A stretch of 62,665 nucleotides of DNA, filler included, from Basidiobolus ranarum (taxonomy: Eukaryota), in the NCBI GenBank assembly GCA_040143965.1. It is 17 parts of 17 records of this genome, joined end to end, with 100 filler letters (N's around TTAATTAATTAA, not from the genome) between each part and the next. Parts side by side here need not be neighbours in the genome. Positions count along the whole stretch, not along the records: positions 59,091 to 62,665 come from JASJQH010009280.1; 16 more parts are not named here. One strand, 5' to 3'. Shown here piece by piece: positions 8,011 through 61,699 of this stretch. Below the pieces are notes generated by a model that was not told the DNA's origin, searched no databases, and worked only from the letters and a program-made list of their open reading frames with translations. The translations under genes and the position numbers were made by a program. The number at the start of each line of letters is the position of its first letter. Position 1 is the stretch's first letter.

Positions 8011-8292
8011 TATTAAAATTAAAAAGGGAGAAATGTTAATCTGGCCAGGATTTGAACCTGGGACCTCTTTCACTCTAGCAAGGTGCTCTAACCACTGAGC
8101 TACCAGTCCTTGTATGCTATGCCTATATTGCTAGGGAGCTCTACCCTAGTCTGTCAATTTATGGTACTTTGACATATCAGCTGTACAAGCAACTGATTGG
8201 CCTTAGACTTTGTGTTCAGATGCAGTCACCATACCACATATTTTCCTCTTTGAGAATTAATGCTTGTACCACAAGTCATCAGACTTCCAGCA
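8011..8292 (-). mobile_element. tRNA-bearing solo LTR (family T), copy 1
   Basis: Reverse complement aligns end to end with 60919-61200. Starts TGCTGGAAGT with a decayed 3' terminus. No clear TSD. Confidence 0.75.
8037..8109 (-). tRNA. tRNA-like sequence (pseudo-tRNA) inside LTR
   Basis: GGACTGGTAGCTCAGTGGTTAGAGCACCTTGCTAGAGTGAAAGAGGTCCCAGGTTCAAATCCTGGCCAGATTA. A box, B box, D arm and T arm are intact. Anticodon stem is mispaired, so no isotype can be assigned. Confidence 0.65.
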
Positions 8293-36876: not shown

Positions 36877-37027
36877 NNNNNNNNNNNNNNNNNNNNNNNN
36901 NNNNNNNNNNNNNNNNNNNNTTAATTAATTAANNNNNNNNNNNNNNNNNNNNNNNNNNNNNNNNNNNNNNNNNNNNCCGAGTACGTTTTCTTTCACCATG
37001 CGGCTTGTTATAACGAGTATGTTTGTC

Positions 37028-37651
37028 TTAACCAGGAGGTTTGTCATCACCAGGAGGTTTGTCGCCACCAGGAGGCTTATCACCACCAGGAGGTCTGTCG
37101 TAACCTGGAGGCTTATCATCACCAGGAGGCTTATCACCACCTGGAGGCTTGTCACCACCCGGAGGTCTGTCATAACCAGGAGGCTTATCACCGCCAGGAG
37201 GTCTGTTATAACCCGGGGGTCTATGACCTCCTGGAGGCATGTCATATCCAGGAGGTCTGTTGTAGCCTGGGGGACTGCCACCACCTGGAGGTCCGTAGTG
37301 GTTGATGCCCGCATAGTCACCACCTCTTTTCGCATGTACTCTTTCACGACTTCTAATAGTAGCACATGCTTTCCCGTCTGCCTTAATTCTTAGAAGCTTT
37401 GCCGTGGCGACGGCTTCAACACAAGTCATCAACGAGGGGTTCTTTACATTTGCCGAGAGCTGGGTGATGTCGGTATCAAAGCAGGTGTTTTTATCTACTT
37501 GGATACCAAAGACTGCGAGTCTCGCGACAACACCGTCACAGACAGTATTTACATGATTCGTAATGATTGATGACGTATCCAAAAAGGTTGATTTTTCGGA
37601 CATTACAAGCACAGCTTGTAACAACACTAGGCCACTTGCGAAAAGCTTCAT
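37028..37651 (-). CDS. Secreted protein with 4-Cys N-domain, KR site and PPGxx(K/R) hexapeptide repeats
   Basis: Signal peptide MKLFASGLVLLQAVLVMS, TATATAA about 60 bp upstream, 14 full 18-bp repeats plus a partial one at 37031-37291. Confidence 0.8.
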   Translation of the reverse strand: MKLFASGLVLLQAVLVMSEKSTFLDTSSIITNHVNTVCDGVVARLAVFGIQVDKNTCFDTDITQLSANVKNPSLMTCVEAVATAKLLRIKADGKACATIRSRERVHAKRGGDYAGINHYGPPGGGSPPGYNRPPGYDMPPGGHRPPGYNRPPGGDKPPGYDRPPGGDKPPGGDKPPGDDKPPGYDRPPGGDKPPGGDKPPGDDKPPG

Positions 37652-44180: not shown

Positions 44181-44358
44181 TATAGACTTGTTCCATTTCA
44201 TTGAGCCAGATCAGGCCAGCTAAAAAGTGTGCCAGCACAAATTGGCATGATTGGGCACNNNNNNNNNNNNNNNNNNNNNNNNNNNNNNNNNNNNNNNNNN
44301 NNTTAATTAATTAANNNNNNNNNNNNNNNNNNNNNNNNNNNNNNNNNNNNNNNNNNNN

Positions 44359-47300
44359 AGACCTTGCACATTTGCTTCGTTCTCATGTTGCCTCAAAGTT
44401 ACCTGATTACATGACGCCAACAGCATTTGTTCGTTTAGATGAACTTCCGTTGACAGCAAATGGCAAACTCGACCGACGCGCATTGCCAAAACCCGACGCC
44501 GACTCTCTCGTCAGTCAGAAATACGAAGAACCAGTTGGTGAGATCGAAAATGCCCTTGCTAGTATCTGGGAGGAGTTGCTCAGTATCGCCAGAGTCGGCC
44601 GTCATGACAACTTCTTTATGCTTGGTGGTCACTCATTGCTAGCTGTACAGCTAATTGAGCGACTTCGTTGTATTGGACTCGGTTTGTCTGTGCGTGCTCT
44701 ATTTGAGACACCAACATTGAGTGTACTGGCCCAATCTCTCAATCAGGACCATGTAGCTGTAGCAGCAGCGGCAGAGGCACCCATAAACCTTATTAAGCCT
44801 GATACCACTGAGATTACCCCAGAAATGCTGCCACTCATCGACTTGACTCAGGATGACATTGATCACATTGTAAACCAAGTTGAAGGAGGGGTCAGCAATA
44901 TTCAAGATATCTATGCTCTCACTCCATTGCAGGATGGAATGTTGTTCCATCATATCATGGCAGCCAAGGGTGATCCTTATCTGATCTTTGGTATCATGGC
45001 CTTTTCTGATCAAGACATTCTGGATCGATACCTGAATGCGGTGCAGAAGGTGGTTGATCGCCACGACATCTTACGTACTGGCATTATGTGGGAGGGTTTA
45101 TCTACGCCTGCTCAGATTGTATTGCACCAGGCTACTCTCTCAGTTACTGAGTTATCATTGGATCCAGTAGATGGACCAATTATTGAGCAACTCACAAAGC
45201 GTGTGGACCCCCGAGAGTATCGCATCGATTTAACTCAAGCTCCATTGACGCGTTTCGTCATTGCGCCCGATGTTGATGGTCGCTGGATAGTGGCTCATTT
45301 GCTACACCATACTATTGGTGATCACTCAGCTGTTGATGAAATGAATTACGAAATTGAAGCGTTCCTTGGAGGCCGAGGAGAATTACTGTCAGCGCCATCT
45401 TCATTCCGTAATCTTATAGCACAAACGCGTGCAGGACATAGTGTTCAGGCGCACGAGCGATTCTTTAGCAAGATGCTTGCGGATATTGAAACCCCTACCT
45501 AGCCTTTTGGATTGTCAAATGTTCACGGCAGTGGTCTCAATATCACCGAAACCTACCGTTTGCTGCCACAGGATCTGAACAACCGCCTTCGCAGTCAAGC
45601 CAAATTGATGGGTGTCAGTCTTGCAAGTATGTGCCATCTTGCTTGGGCGCAAGTTATTGCGCGAACCAGTGGACAACAACGAGTGGTGTTTGGTACTGTT
45701 CTCTTTGGGCGCATGCAAGCAGGGTCTGGCGCGGACCGCGCAATGGGACTATTCATTAATACACTACCAGTTCGTATAGACATAGAAAATTCCAGCGTTC
45801 AGCATACCGTACGTCAAACTCAAGTCACTTTAGCAGCTTTAATGGATCATGAGCACGCTTCATTGGCATTAGCCCAAAGATGCAGCAGTGTCCCCTCTGG
45901 TACTCCAATGTTCAGCGCCCTCCTGAACTATCGTCATAATAAAAAGGAAGCGAGTGAGAATACAGGAATCCCTGGTATTGATTATATTGAAGGACAAGAG
46001 CGCACCAACTACCCATTCGTGATGTCTGTTGAAGACAACGGGAACTCACTCGGTATCACGGCTCAGATTGTTCAACCTTTTGATTCAGTTCGTATTATTG
46101 AGTACATGCAGCAAGCCTTACAAAGTCTAGCCGTTGCGTTGGAGTCCACACCTAATATGCCAGTTCAAGAGTTGGAGATTATTCCTATGGATGAGCGCAA
46201 CTTGATGCTTCATTCGTGGAATACCACACACGAACCCTATCCCGATCAATTGTGTATTCACCATCTATTTGAGCAGCAGGTATCTCGTTCTCCTGATGCC
46301 GTCGCTATTGTATATGAGTCGCAGACATTGACATATGCTGAGATCAATGTACGCGCCAATCGCCTCGCACATCATCTCATTGATATTGGAGTCACGCCCG
46401 ATACTCTTGTCGCGCTCTGCGTAGAGCGCTCACCTGCAGTTGTGATCGGAATACTTGCCATTTTGAAGGCTGGTGGTGCTTATTTACCACTAGACCCTGT
46501 GTACGCAAGTGAACGACTGGCTGACATTCTCTCCGATGCATCTCCATCCATTATCTTGGCAGATAAGCACGGTCAGAATACAATTGGCGAAGCATCGCTC
46601 TTAACACTGACTGTAATCGATCCAAACATGCAGTTGGACGAGAACCACACCGAAAACCCACAAGTCCCTAGCTTGACATCGCATCATCTCGCCTATGTCA
46701 TCTATACGTCGGGATCTACAGGTAAGCCTAAAGGTGTGATGGTGGAGCACGCCCAAGTGACTCGTCTGTTTGATGCAACAGCGTCCTGGTATCAATTCGA
46801 CGAAAACGATACCTGGTGCCTGCTGCACTCCTACAGCTTCGATTTCTCGGTGTGGGAGTTGTGGGGAGCTCTTCGATATGGTGGTAAACTCGTACTCCCA
46901 TCCCATCATGTTACTCGTTCCTCTGAAGACTTGTATCAATTGATTTGTGAGCAAGGTATCACTGTCTTGAATCTGACTCCCAGTGCCTTCAAGCCGCTGA
47001 TTGTATGCCAAGCACAAAGTGAGCTCCGTGATCAACTGCGCTATGTTATCTTTGGAGGTGAGGCACTCGAACCGGCTATCCTTCAGCCATGGTATGCCAC
47101 ACGATCTGAAGATTCACCCAAAATTGTGAACATGTATGGTATTACAGAAACCACGGTCCATGTCACTTATCGCGTGATGAAGAAGGAGGACTGTGCGCAG
47201 GTCATTAGTCCCATTGGTGCGAGAATTCCAGATCTGACTACCTATATCCTAGATACTCATGGTAATCCAGTACCTTTGGGAGTGATCGGAGAGTTGTATA

Positions 47301-47946
47301 TCGGTGGAGCAGGTGTTACAAGGGGATATCTGAATCGACCAGAGTTGACCGCTGAGAGGTTCCCTCTTGACCCATTCAGCAAGAGACAAGGTGCTCGCAT
47401 GTACAGAACTGGTGATCTCGGGCGTTATTTATCTGATGGAAGTCTGATATTCTTGGGTCGTAATGATCACCAAGTCAAGATCCGCGGTTTCCGAATTGAG
47501 CTAGGAGAGATTGAGGCACGTCTTGTTGATCATCCTGTTGTCAAGGAGGCTGTGGTACTTGTTCTGGGAGATGCCTCTGATAAGCGTCTTGTCGCGTATA
47601 TAGTTGCTGAACATAGGGAGGACCTGGCCCATTTGCTTCGTTCCCACGTTGCCGCAAGACTGCCTGATTACATGACACCAGCAGCGTTTGTTCGCATGGA
47701 TGAGCTTCCATTAACATCAAATGGCAAACTCGACCGTCGTGCACTTCCAGAACCGGATAGTGACTCCCTCGTCAGTCAGAGATATGAGGAACCTGTGGGT
47801 GAGATCGAGACTGCTCTTGCGGGTATCTGGGCGGATCTACTCAAAATCAACAGAATTGGGCGTCATGACAACTTCTTCATGCTTGGCGGTCATTCTTTGC
47901 TAGCTGTGCAGCTGATTGAACGCCTTCGTCGCATTAAACTTGGTTT
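44359..47946 (+). CDS. Bacterial-type multimodular NRPS fragment: (A C-term)-T-dual E/C-A(Thr)-T, one in-frame TAG at 45500-45502
   Basis: Intronless. [13 protein letters not shown] x2. [10 protein letters not shown] plus [54 protein letters not shown]. Manually read specificity code DFWNIGMVHK. Truncated at both ends. Confidence 0.95.
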
Positions 47947-48046
47947 NNNNNNNNNNNNNNNNNNNNNNNNNNNNNNNNNNNNNNNNNNNNTTAATTAATT
48001 AANNNNNNNNNNNNNNNNNNNNNNNNNNNNNNNNNNNNNNNNNNNN

Positions 48047-57094: not shown

Positions 57095-58354
57095 ATGGTC
57101 AACATTCGTACTTTCTCACTTGGCACTTTACTGGTGGTTGCATTGGCCATTACTTATACTGACGCACAGGAAGTGGATGTTTCTAATCGTTATATCATTA
57201 AAATCAAAGATAGCGCTGATACTAACAAAGGTATTGTGGATTTATCAAGAAAATTTCTCATCTTATAATCCTTTCATCTCTAATATATATTGGCTTCTTT
57301 AGTTGATCTGTTCCTTAAAGCAAAGTTGGATCAATATAACCGTGGTCGTAGTGGAAATAACACCCTCAAGAATGAATTAAAGGGAAAATTCACATTGGAG
57401 AATTTTAAGGCCTACTCTGGTGTCTTTAGTGAATCTCTAGTCAAAGAATTGAATAGAAATAGTGATGTCGAGTACGTTGAAGCTGAGCAAGTTTTCACTA
57501 TTTCTGGGGTTCAGAACAACTCTCCCAGTTGGGGTCTACCTAGGGTTTCCCAACGTAAGAGAGATTCTTCTGCTCCTTACAATTATCCAGATAGTGCTGG
57601 CTCAGGAGTAGATGCCTATATCATTGATACCGGTATTAACGTTAAACATGTCGATTTTGGTGGAAGAGCTACTTTTCCTAGAAGTTTCATTGATGGTGAA
57701 GCAGTGGAGGATCTCAATGGTCATGGTACCCATGTTGCTGGAACTGTTGGTGGGAATACTTATGGCGTAGCCAAAAAAGTGAACCTGATAGGAGTAAAGG
57801 TATTGAACAGAAATGGTAGTGGAAGCACCTCAGCCATTGTCGCCGGGATTAATTGGGTAGCACAGCAAGCCAAAGCTACGGGTCGTAAAAGTGTGGCCAA
57901 CATGTCTTTAGGAGGTGGTGATAGTGAGGCGATGAAAAGTGCTGTCAACGCTGCTGTAAAAGCTGGAGTAAGCTTTTTCGTTGCTGCTATGAATGACAAT
58001 AAAGACGCTTGTAACGTATCACCCGCTAATGCATCAGGAGCATTTACCGTAGCTGCTACGACAATTTCCGATACTGCCGCCAGCTTTACTAACTATGGTC
58101 GATGCGTTAACATAGCTGGACCTGGCTTAGATATCACTTCTGCTTGGATAGGTGGTAATAATGCTTACAAAAGTATCTCGGGTACTAGTATGGCCACTCC
58201 TCACGTAGCTGGAGTCGCAGCACTATACTTAGCTCAAGAGGATTTGGGTTCACCTCAAGCCGTATATGATACTCTGGTAGCGAGATCTACCAAAAATGCC
58301 ATCACTGGATTAAAGGGTAACACACCAAATTATTTGGTCTTCAACTCGAAATAA
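57095..58354 (+). CDS. Secreted subtilisin-like serine protease (S8A, proteinase K type) with I9 propeptide
   Basis: Exons 57095-57230 (signal peptide MVNIRTFSLGTLLVVALAITYTDA) and 57303-58354. Catalytic DTG, HGTHVAG, GTSMATPHVAG. TATATAA at 57039. Confidence 0.96.
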
Positions 58355-59090: not shown

Positions 59091-60057
59091 TCATAGTAAA
59101 CTATAAATAGGACATATTCAATTCAATAAAACTTAAGTGTCTAATTCACAAATCCAAATCTTGTCCAAAACACTTCCAAATCCCCTAAACACTTTTATCA
59201 CACTTTTCTCTATGCTAATGCAGCTAAAACTTGGACTAGTAAGAGGTAAATAGCAATTCTTTATTAGTACTTTGTTTATTTATATTCTGATTCTTTAGTA
59301 ATCAAGTCAGTCATTCAAAAGTGGGTATTTATTGCCCTACTTGATAGAAACATCAATCAGATCACTTTTACACTCAATAAAACTTAAGTGTCTAATTCAC
59401 ATATCCAAGTCTTGTACAAAAAACATCCAAGTCCCCTAAACACTTTTATCAATTGTGTGCTATAAGACCTGACCAAGTGTAGTTGACAGATTGTGCCAGA
59501 TAGCATTTTAGGAGGCAAGATCCAGAGGCACAACCTACTCTAGTCAAGCAACAAGTTCATGATTTAATGAGTTGCTGACTGATGACCAGTTGCTGCAGAA
59601 TGATTCATTAATATCAATGTTGCTATATAAGTTATGTAAAGTCTTGAAAGACAGCTCAAAAACATATCCTGCTGCCAACTACATGTACCCAAGATGAGAA
59701 ACCTTTATTACAAGTGTTAAGGGGATTTGGAAGTGTTTTAGACAAGATTTGGACTTGTGAATTAGACACTTAAGTTTTATTGAATTGAATAAGTCTTATT
59801 TATAGTTTACTATGCAATAGAACTATTGAGCAGGGCTAGATCATATCCAATATGCCTGTTATGCATGGGTGATATTTTGAGATGGTTTGGAGAAGTTTTG
59901 AGCAAATAGTGAAAATTGGTAAAAGTGATCAAATTGATATTTCTATCAATTAGAGCAATAAACACAAATATTTAAATAGCACAATTGAGTGCTAAATATT
60001 CAGAATATGAACAAACTCACTACTAAATAAACAGTTGCTCTTTACCTAATTTCAACA
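59091..60057. repeat. LTR family C copies (59091-59200 +, ~59230-59451 +, 59706-60057 -)
   Basis: ...cccctaaacacttttatca ends, plus one near-complete reverse copy ending TTTCAACA. Confidence 0.8.
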
Positions 60058-60918
60058 TCTTTAACATAAAGATGAAGCCATGAAAATTATTTTATTTCCG
60101 GTCAATTTAGTCATTAATTTAGTGGACAAACTTGAAGCCACTGGAGTACCTGCTACCAATTGTGACAGCATTGTTAAAGTCCTGAATAGCCTCCCACACA
60201 TGTCTTAGAGCCTGGTAATGGATGCAGAATCAAGAGCTCAAAGTTTGACTATGCATCAGCTATTTGGCCAACTCCTGCATGAATATTTCTGCAAATTGTG
60301 TTCTAACCTAAAGAATTAAGAAAGTGCTTAGAAAAAGAATAAAAACATAATGAATGTGGAGATGTGCTAAAAGATCAGACTACTTTTCCATATCTAGCCC
60401 ATCTAAAGCTAACTATAAGGATTTTTGGTTGTGATAAATTGATTCTGGAGATTCCCAACATTTCACAAATGAAAAATATTGATATGTGAAACATGAAGAA
60501 ATACTGAATACAGGGGTGTTCATGGGAAATGAGCATACATTGGGTGTGAATGGAATCCAAACAATTAAAATTCCCCTAACTGGTGCTTGTGAAGAGTAAG
60601 TGTATACTTTGAAGGATGTAGTAATTATTCCAGATATTGCTCAGAAAGATATATATATATGCCAGGGCATCTCAGAAGGACTTTGATTCAATTTGAATAA
60701 GTCTGGATACACCATCACCGATCAACATGGAAATAAATTAGCTTTGGGTGAAAAGGTTCAGAAACTAAGAAAAATTACATATAACCAAAGAGTTATGTTG
60801 CAAATATAAGTGCTTCCTAGCAAGTTACTATTGAGTTATTGCCCACACAATAAAGCTATAATGAAATCAGTTATTTGAGCAAAGCAATCAAAAATTGCCT
60901 AATTTAAGAACTTATATT

Positions 60919-61200
60919 TGTTGAAAGTGTGGTGACTTGTGGTACAAGCAGTAATTCACAAAGAGAAAAATATGGAGTATGGTGACTTCATCTGAACACA
61001 AAGTCTAAGGCCAATCAGTTGCTTGTATAGCTGATATACCAAATTACCATACATTGACAGACTAGGTTAAGGCTCCCTAGCAATATAGGTATAGCATACA
61101 AGGACTGGCAGCTCAGTGGTTAGAGAACCTTGCTATAGTGACGGAGGTCCCAGGTTCAAATCCCGGCCAGACCAATATTTCTCCCCAAATATTTTCAATA
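60919..61200 (+). mobile_element. tRNA-bearing solo LTR (family T), copy 2, with TSD ATATT
   Basis: ATATT|TGTTGAAA...TTTCAATA|ATATT. 282 bp with near-perfect 8-bp inverted termini. Confidence 0.85.
61102..61174 (+). tRNA. tRNA-like sequence (pseudo-tRNA) inside LTR
   Basis: GGACTGGCAGCTCAGTGGTTAGAGAACCTTGCTATAGTGACGGAGGTCCCAGGTTCAAATCCCGGCCAGACCA. 73 nt, acceptor stem 6/7 paired, A and B boxes present, anticodon arm non-canonical. Confidence 0.65.
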
Positions 61201-61699
61201 ATATTAACCCCCCTATCAAAATAGAGAGTAATGACAGTTATATATGTGGAAAACAAGCCAGTAGACCTTTTGGAGCCCTGTTATGGTCAAATAAGTCATA
61301 AATTTGATCCAACCCATGTAGATTGGTGGGGACTGATGAAAATTTATCTCAAGTCAGAAAATGATATTGAATCACATTCATTTTGATTATATAGACGTAG
61401 ATATAGAAATGATTACTATGTCAAAGAGTCCCAAAATTGGGTCCATTGTTTATAGCACAGGTACATGAGTTACAGACTGTAAAAGAGGCCCTGCAGGGCC
61501 CTCACAATCAACCAAGGTGTAAAGTTAAAAGCAAAAAAGTTTTTTATTAGGAGGATATTCCAGATGAGCATTTGAGATAGTCCAGACTAGTGCACAATTG
61601 AACTAGATTACCCCATTTCAAGGAAACTTCTGTCCAGGTATCCTTTTCAAAGACCAATGCATTGCATACACTATGCCTGACTTCATCACTCAAAACCAA

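What the first reader, a model, noticed from the sequence alone, without database searches (positions are those of the whole stretch)
60919..61200. LTR family that carries its own tRNA-like Pol III unit
Seen: a 282-bp element with TGTTGAAA...TTTCAATA termini and a perfect ATATT TSD, inserted in a copia remnant. Its 3' third is a 73-nt tRNA fold with A box (-AGCTCAGTGG), B box (GGTTCAAATCC), near-intact acceptor, D and T arms, and a T4 run just downstream. The anticodon arm is scrambled. The tRNA part follows ~180 bp of conserved element sequence, unlike a SINE where it is the 5' head. Known: plant Cassandra TRIMs carry 5S rRNA-like Pol III units in their LTRs. Inference: a fungal analogue using a captured tRNA as an internal Pol III promoter, a TFIIIC-type barrier against silencing, an RNase P/Z processing signal, or a self-supplied primer.
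Basis: partly seen in the sequence, partly recalled or inferred. Interest (0 to 1): 0.72.

Follow-up and report, generated by a model that had tools for sequence, protein, structure and literature searches.

The report
Helenus-type tRNA-bearing mini-retrotransposon in Basidiobolus
This is one leftover end-repeat of a tiny jumping element that carries a tRNA look-alike, a kind described in 2024, but comparing its relatives shows a self-pairing loop and fusions with larger helper elements that hint at how such elements get packaged and copied.

Summary
The element is real: a 282-bp solo LTR with a perfect 5-bp TSD inside a Copia remnant. Its family has at least 242 LTRs in the genome. Full copies are LTR, 51-bp interior (PBS for the tRNA-iMet anticodon arm, PPT), LTR, so it is a TRIM. 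TRIMs with tRNA-like LTRs are already published as Helenus (Kojima 2024), and this one meets the tested criteria. The host is Basidiobolus, outside the basidiomycete fungi listed there. Self-priming is refuted. Three additions were not found in print. (1) The tRNA-like unit is closer to a basidiomycete Helenus (60 of 74 columns, by eye) than to host tRNAs (46 for the best class I gene). (2) In 15 of 23 families, loop positions 32-35 are palindromic, in five different sequences (shuffle mean 2.8), while the stems covary and U33 is mostly lost; this suggests a kissing-loop dimerisation signal. (3) 10 of 21 interiors follow a Copia LTR joined exactly at the shared PBS, pointing to co-packaging with three Copia families. 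Pol III use and dimerisation are inferred, not shown.

The parts
60914..60918 (+). left 5-bp target-site duplication
60919..61200 (+). solo LTR of the Helenus-type TRIM, 5.7% diverged from the family's commonest state
   Evidence: L001
60919..61101 (+). LTR part upstream of the tRNA-like unit (inferred U3); no T3 run in a young copy's interior plus U3, weak signal P 0.044
61102..61174 (+). tRNA-like unit (inferred start of R); class I body, AGA in most copies, fixed A3.A70 and G31.G39 mismatches
61109..61119 (+). A box (position 8 mutated in this copy)
61133..61139 (+). anticodon-like loop; positions 32-35 read CTAG in 91 of 106 copies, CTAT in this one
61153..61163 (+). B box
61175..61200 (+). 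LTR tail (inferred U5) with the Copia-like terminus; the T4 at 61192-61195 is a minority variant
61201..61205 (+). right 5-bp target-site duplication
60058..60913 (+). decayed Copia gag/protease region, left of the insertion (limits approximate)
61206..61510 (+). continuation of the Copia remnant, right of the insertion (limits approximate)
59709..60058 (-). LTR of Copia family C, one of three families found fused to the TRIM elsewhere
8011..8292 (-). second, older solo LTR of the same family, inside a Copia-C LTR on another contig; ARAGORN calls its 8037-8109 tRNA-Ser(AGA)

Best explanation
The window copy is a solo LTR left by LTR-LTR recombination of a Helenus-type TRIM (about 615 bp: two 282-bp LTRs and a 51-bp interior). 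Shown: structure, TSDs, PBS complementary to the anticodon arm of host tRNA-iMet, PPT, and PBS, PPT core and termini shared with resident Copia families. Inferred: Pol III starts at the tRNA-like unit of the 5' LTR, reads through PBS, PPT and the 3' LTR, and the RNA is packaged, reverse-transcribed (half-tRNA priming) and integrated by Copia proteins. The tRNA-like unit is not a decoding tRNA. It is kept as a cloverleaf whose loop shows a palindrome at 32-35, which I read as a kissing-loop signal for RNA dimerisation (this last step about 0.45). Co-packaged TRIM and Copia intermediates swap partners at plus-strand transfer through the shared PBS, giving the observed fusions (about 0.7).
For: Full copies LTR-51 bp-LTR: 11 of 21 interior hits follow a tRNA-LTR; L167 has an outer 5-bp repeat with one mismatch. 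Of 41 copies with both ends and no PBS or PPT beside them, 22 have a perfect and 10 a one-mismatch TSD. PBS matches tRNA-iMet nt 27-39. Definition and fungal traits of Helenus match. No host tRNA is close: best class I 46 identities over 73 nt among 34 ARAGORN types; true tRNA-Ser(AGA) has a long variable arm. Across 22 families, stems pair beyond column shuffles: acceptor 138 of 154 (mean 122), anticodon 89 of 110 (69), T 105 of 110 (99); T33 kept in 7 of 22. Palindrome at 32-35 in 15 of 23, five sequences, shuffle mean 2.84, none of 20,000 reaching 15; real tRNA loops 1 of 30. 10 of 21 interiors follow a Copia LTR (A 4, B 3, C 3) and 7 tRNA-LTRs lead through the PBS into Copia gag; gag confirmed by Pfam PF14223 for A, B and C.
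Against: No expression, Pol III or dimer data; no reads could be examined. Within the family the A and B boxes vary as much as U3 (0.039 against 0.0385, P 0.47) and there is no compensatory change; expected for copies decaying after insertion, but no support. The cloverleaf is not more stable than shuffles (z 0.52, -0.30, -0.49). The one full copy with both ends intact (L005) has no clean TSD and its LTRs differ at 10 of 283 columns. 9 of 41 solo-type copies lack a TSD. No fusion could be shown with a TSD at both outer ends because contigs end. The 23 families are related, so the shuffle P is overstated; 24 of 99 metagenome loci were not parsed and were dropped. A 4-nt palindrome is a weak contact. 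In Ty1 palindromes are needed for dimers, but a proposed kissing-loop step could not be confirmed (abstract of PMC6844567).
Confidence: 0.9

Rival explanations
1. Helenus-type TRIM in which the tRNA-like unit is only a promoter; stems and loop palindromes are inherited from one or a few ancestors (tRNA-Thr(AGT) has CTAG by nature) and carry no function of their own. This is close to the view of PMC10886601.
For: Host tRNA-Thr(AGT) and tRNA-Ser(AGA) loops start with CTAG. No excess conservation of the loop within the family (0.045). The families are not independent.
Against: Five palindromes (CTAG, CATG, CCGG, TATA, TGCA) need at least four double substitutions, and 15 of 22 families lack the T33 of working tRNAs. 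The palindrome is centred on 33/34, off the hairpin axis, so hairpin-templated repair does not explain it (inference).
Confidence: 0.4
2. The Copia-TRIM fusions are not reverse-transcription products but mis-assemblies, or ectopic recombination between integrated copies at the 13-17 nt they share.
For: Fragmented assembly, 13,754 contigs; many LTRs end at contig ends; 24 of 31 TSD-flanked solo copies sit in or beside Copia-like sequence; two apparent oddities proved to be nested insertions (L167, L223).
Against: Ten junctions on ten contigs all fall at the PBS, in both reciprocal forms; several carry private changes inside the PBS (L161, L184, L216, L219, L227), which makes junction words unique; two metagenome loci also show a tRNA-LTR, PBS, then gag-like frame (L312, L324, motif match only).
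Confidence: 0.25
3. The unit is a working tRNA (Ser-AGA or a suppressor) spread by the element, or a tRNA-headed SINE.
For: ARAGORN of 102 copies tRNA, 80 as Ser(AGA); intact copies score 58 bits on RF00005.
Against: No long variable arm, fixed A3.A70 and G31.G39; always embedded in the LTR; TG..CA ends, 5-bp TSD, PBS and PPT; loop sequence free to change across families.
Confidence: 0.05
4. The LTR tRNA primes the element's own reverse transcription (one of the first reader's options).
For: None found.
Against: The PBS is complementary to host tRNA-iMet; PMC10886601 section 3.6 also found no complementarity between LTR tRNA and PBS in Helenus.
Confidence: 0.02

Closest known systems
Helenus (TRIMp3), Kojima 2024, PMC10886601; nearest seen: Helenus-1_AmAr of Amylostereum areolatum
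   Same: TRIM with a tRNA-like unit in the 3' part of the LTR, A and B boxes, 5-bp TSD, PBS to the tRNA-iMet anticodon loop, PPT, many solo LTRs, inflated tRNA-Ser(AGA) calls; tRNA-like unit identical at 60 of 74 columns with Helenus-1_AmAr (by eye).
   Different: Host is Basidiobolus (phylum Basidiobolomycota in NCBI); the paper lists only Pucciniales and Agaricomycetes among fungi and its supplement has no Basidiobolus, Zoopagomycota or Mucoromycota. The paper has no hit for palindrom, dimer or kissing and infers Copia helpers from PBS and interior similarity, not from fusions.
Cassandra (plant TRIM with 5S rRNA-derived LTR segment), as described in PMC10886601
   Same: Small-RNA-derived Pol III promoter inside a TRIM LTR; tandem LTR-sharing forms (L006).
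   Different: 5S (type 1) rather than tRNA (type 2) promoter; transcription is validated for Cassandra, not here.
Template-switch complex insertions, Sabot and Schulman 2007, PMC1950507
   Same: Three-LTR composites ascribed to co-packaged RNAs.
   Different: There the partners are near-identical elements switching at R, and rare (2 among 400 insertions). Here unrelated LTRs (local scores 17-22) are joined whole at the PBS and make up 10 of 21 interiors; outer TSDs could not be checked.
Ty5 and Drosophila copia half-tRNA priming (cited in PMC10886601); Ty1 PAL1/PAL2 dimerisation (PMC6844567, abstract)
   Same: PBS to the iMet anticodon arm; palindromes near the RNA 5' end as dimer signals.
   Different: Those are autonomous, Pol II-driven elements and their palindromes do not sit in a tRNA mimic.

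Membership tests
Helenus | Two LTRs around a short non-coding interior, whole element under about 1 kb | tested here: met
   282 + 51 + 282 bp in L005/L215, L167, L223, L230 and others
Helenus | tRNA-derived sequence inside the LTR with box A (TRGCY, YGG) and box B (GGTTC) | tested here: met
Helenus | PBS right after the 5' LTR and PPT before the 3' LTR | tested here: met
Helenus (fungal) | 5-bp TSD | tested here: met
   32 of 41 solo-type copies within one mismatch; L167 one mismatch; L005 not clean
Helenus (fungal) | PBS to a tRNA anticodon loop shared with Copia elements | tested here: met
   same PBS before gag of Copia A, B, C
Helenus (fungal) | Descent from the same ancestral tRNA-like unit | tested here: inconclusive
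   60 of 74 columns with Helenus-1_AmAr by eye against 46 (host class I), 49 (host intron-bearing gene) and 52 (prokaryote hits picked for a shared 23-mer); no tree built
TRIMp3 | Transcription by RNA polymerase III from the LTR unit | not testable with these tools
   no RNA or ChIP data seen; also unvalidated for Helenus in PMC10886601
Helenus | This very family already in Repbase or Dfam | not testable with these tools
   neither library is held; absent from the 2024 supplement
Cassandra / Ajax | 5S rRNA-derived segment in the LTR | tested here: not met
   Rfam finds tRNA only
SINE2 | tRNA as 5' head, no LTR ends, variable TSD, tail | tested here: not met
tRNA-Ser(AGA) gene | Long variable arm and intact stems | tested here: not met

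The most novel reading that the evidence does not exclude
Fungal Helenus elements are one old lineage (or one that moves between distant fungi) whose tRNA mimic does two jobs: DNA-level Pol III promoter, and RNA-level cloverleaf that displays a palindromic anticodon loop as a kissing-loop dimerisation and packaging signal, the loop sequence being free as long as it stays self-complementary. The Copia-TRIM fusions at the PBS are fossil records of co-packaging and name several helper families for one TRIM.
Probability: 0.4. Interest if true: 0.75.

Novelty: new member of a known kind. Interest (0 to 1): 0.52.

Why it matters
What would matter: PMC10886601 leaves open how these elements depend on helpers and treats the tRNA part mainly as a promoter. 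A loop palindrome that changes sequence but stays self-complementary gives a direct bench test for a dimer signal in a 73-nt RNA. PBS-joined fusions give a genome-only way to name a TRIM's helpers. An early-diverging fungal member close to basidiomycete ones bears on single against multiple origins. Practically, the family can add on the order of two hundred false tRNA-Ser(AGA) calls to this genome (93 of 102 copies tested were called tRNA; 230 A-box hits).

Tried and rejected
L223 looked like a footprint of the RNA 5' end (Copia LTR joined 4 nt before the tRNA); it is a nested Copia-A LTR with a 5-bp repeat. L167 looked like a fusion; it is a nested Copia-A LTR in the PBS. The pair on C2117 is two LTRs around 50 bp without PBS or PPT, not a full element. 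An autonomous Copia with tRNA-LTRs at both ends: not supported; 28 of 30 Copia-B starts have their own LTR, 1 a tRNA-LTR, 1 another, and of the PPT-anchored tRNA-LTRs all but L157 follow the TRIM interior. A second tRNA-LTR family with the same PBS in this genome: none among 11 hits (other PBS types not searched). A host source tRNA: a targeted pattern gave 9 hits, all the tRNA-Ile(AAT) type by their matched letters; some isoacceptors were not sampled. A bacterial source: 22 hits, best 52 identities. Excess conservation of A/B boxes within the family: none. T-run avoidance: weak (P 0.044 for T3 in interior plus U3, 0.25-0.51 otherwise). Folding energy against shuffles: uninformative. Pfam on the Copia 3' fragment of L161 gave no relevant family; its RNase H identity rests on motifs I recognise from memory. 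A CCT-beta search did not place the host. Earlier findings of this scan: none by sequence. One search crashed and was superseded.

Full report
1. Observation. The element lies at 60919-61200 between two ATATT copies. Rfam finds a full-length tRNA fold at 61102-61174, 33.6 bits against a cut-off of 29; ARAGORN does not call it but calls a second copy at 8037-8109, part of a 285-nt inverted match. The flanks are a decayed Copia gag/protease region, collinear across the insertion in locus L204. The window is a chain of separate contigs. A window subtilisin is identical over 98% of its length to a protein named for Basidiobolus, which NCBI files under Basidiobolomycota.

2. The family. Short anchors gave 242 hits in U3 and 230 in the A box, with reversed controls at 0. 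Of 109 distinct copies read, 41 had both ends and neither PBS nor PPT beside them; 22 had a perfect and 10 a one-mismatch 5-bp TSD, 9 did not. 80 near-full copies differ from the commonest state by 0.4-8.2%, mean 3.7%; the window copy by 5.7%. These samples lean to the best-matching copies. In 30 distinct A-box-anchored places the tRNA part never stood free (26 with LTR upstream, 4 at contig ends).

3. It is a TRIM. Full copies are LTR, 51 bp, LTR. The interior starts with a PBS complementary to nt 27-39 of a host tRNA-Met with initiator-type features (the initiator label is my reading) and ends in a PPT. 21 interiors were found, about one per ten LTRs, so solo LTRs dominate.

4. In the family the anticodon stem keeps four of five pairs and reads AGA in 92 of 106 copies; 8 of 101 have T4 or more after the tRNA. 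The fixed defects are A3.A70 and G31.G39. There is no long variable arm, unlike the host's tRNA-Ser genes, yet ARAGORN of 102 copies, 80 as Ser(AGA). A and B boxes are no more conserved than U3 within the family (P 0.47).

5. Known kind. PMC10886601 (I read parts 1-4 of 6 of the text, parts 1 and 4 of 11 of the supplement, and searched both) defines Helenus as TRIMs with tRNA-derived LTR sequence; fungal ones have 5-bp TSDs, mostly the same iMet anticodon-loop PBS, presumed Copia helpers, and inflate tRNA-Ser(AGA) counts. It lists Pucciniales and Agaricomycetes only. Searches for Helenus, Basidiobolus with LTR terms and TRIMp3 gave no report of this family; of the other hits I saw passages of PMC13570524 and PMC12859917, which only cite Helenus. 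Subscription journals, Repbase and Dfam were not searched.

6. Addition one: kinship. By eye the tRNA-like unit matches Helenus-1_AmAr at 60 of 74 columns. The best host class I tRNA reaches 46 identities, an intron-bearing gene 49, among 34 ARAGORN types, and 22 prokaryote hits chosen for a shared 23-mer reach 52. Representatives of the metagenome clusters reach 44-55. So the unit was not recently captured from a sampled host tRNA. Old common descent or horizontal transfer are both open; convergence on strong boxes is not excluded.

7. Addition two: a palindromic loop. Reading the supplement by eye, 25 of 26 LTRs in part 1 and 26 of 33 in part 4 and one search have CTAG, CATG or CCGG at, or within three bases of, positions 32-35. 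For a test on other data I scanned metagenomes for a B box followed by the PBS, a pattern that says nothing about the loop: 99 loci. 75 parsed into 23 clusters at 85% identity, 24 were dropped; 33 loci showed both LTRs with ends, 25 with a TSD within one mismatch. With a stricter parser, 22 clusters plus this family: 15 of 23 are Watson-Crick palindromes at exactly 32-35 (CTAG 5, TATA 4, CATG 3, CCGG 2, TGCA 1); 19 of 23 at 32 or 33; other offsets 0-3 (offset 33: 7). Column shuffles average 2.84 and none of 20,000 reached 15; real tRNA loops 1 of 30, some of them misparsed. In 22 families (one misregistered cluster left out) acceptor, anticodon and T stems pair beyond shuffles, with several pair types per column, while T33 survives in only 7 (the D-stem figure is circular, as the parser required it). 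Related families inflate these P values, but five states need at least four double changes on any tree. Bases 32-35 cannot pair within one loop, and sequence freedom argues against a protein site, so pairing between two RNAs is the simplest reading (inference). The paper has no hit for palindrom, dimer or kissing, and two searches found nothing on this point. Palindromes are required for Ty1 dimers, though a kissing-loop start was not confirmed there (abstract of PMC6844567).

8. Addition three: fusions with Copia. Reading, 11 of 21 interiors follow a tRNA-LTR and 10 follow a whole or partial Copia LTR (A 4, B 3, C 3), joined at the PBS. The reciprocal form, tRNA-LTR then PBS then gag, occurs in five Copia-B and two Copia-A loci, against 28 of 30 Copia-B starts with their own LTR. 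Gag is confirmed by Pfam for all three. The Copia LTRs are unrelated to the tRNA-LTR. One of the two youngest LTRs (0.4%) sits in such a fusion (L003/L221). Whole-LTR exchange at the PBS is what an inter-molecular plus-strand transfer in a shared particle would give (standard model, inference). Some fusions may descend from one event, so the independent count is at least three. PMC1950507 (whole text read) describes template-switch complexes between near-identical elements; a six-term search for this TRIM case found no paper, a looser one found only general work. Outer TSDs and read support could not be checked.

9. Mechanism. Shown: TRIM anatomy, integration marks, primer match, shared signals and fusions with Copia, covarying cloverleaf and loop palindrome across families. 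Inferred: Pol III start at the tRNA-like unit of the 5' LTR; read-through into the 3' LTR; dimerisation through the loop; packaging, half-tRNA priming and integration by Copia proteins; later LTR-LTR recombination leaving the solo copy in the window.

10. Verdict. New member of a known kind (Helenus), confidence 0.9. The loop palindrome and the PBS fusions were not found in print and are directly testable; they lift interest to about 0.5.

Noticed in passing
window 1-62665: The window is about 17 separate contigs of roughly 3.6 kb joined by N spacers; repeat family D1 is that spacer.
   Followed up: yes
window 44315-47998: NRPS modules (condensation, adenylation, carrier motifs recognised from memory) in two long intron-free frames; Basidiobolus NRPS genes of bacterial origin are recalled as published.
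   Followed up: no
window 57284-58354: Subtilisin gene of an expanded Basidiobolus family.
   Followed up: partly
window 36958-37291: 18-bp coding tandem repeat giving a Pro/Gly-rich protein with a signal-peptide-like start.
   Followed up: no
G000 C6957, C7711, C6885, C2156, C8462; L130-L156: tRNA matches are densely clustered: several per contig, and many isotypes within 3-kb loci.
   Followed up: no
solo copies: 24 of 31 TSD-flanked solo LTRs have a flank matching Copia-anchored loci: targeting to, or survival in, Copia-rich DNA. No genome-wide background was measured.
   Followed up: partly
L218 (C6956) and L157 (C1029): L218: tRNA-LTR, interior, then a different TG-starting sequence after the PPT. 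L157: a tRNA-LTR after a PPT with non-TRIM sequence upstream. Both unexplained.
   Followed up: partly
L299-L397: Many unlisted Helenus-like TRIMs in metagenomes: 33 loci with both LTRs and ends seen, 25 with a TSD within one mismatch, LTRs about 117-283 bp where the TSD and PPT are clean. Hosts not determined.
   Followed up: partly
L326, L370, L380, L389, L392: A separate repeated metagenome element with a B-box-like motif before the same PBS but no parsable A box.
   Followed up: no
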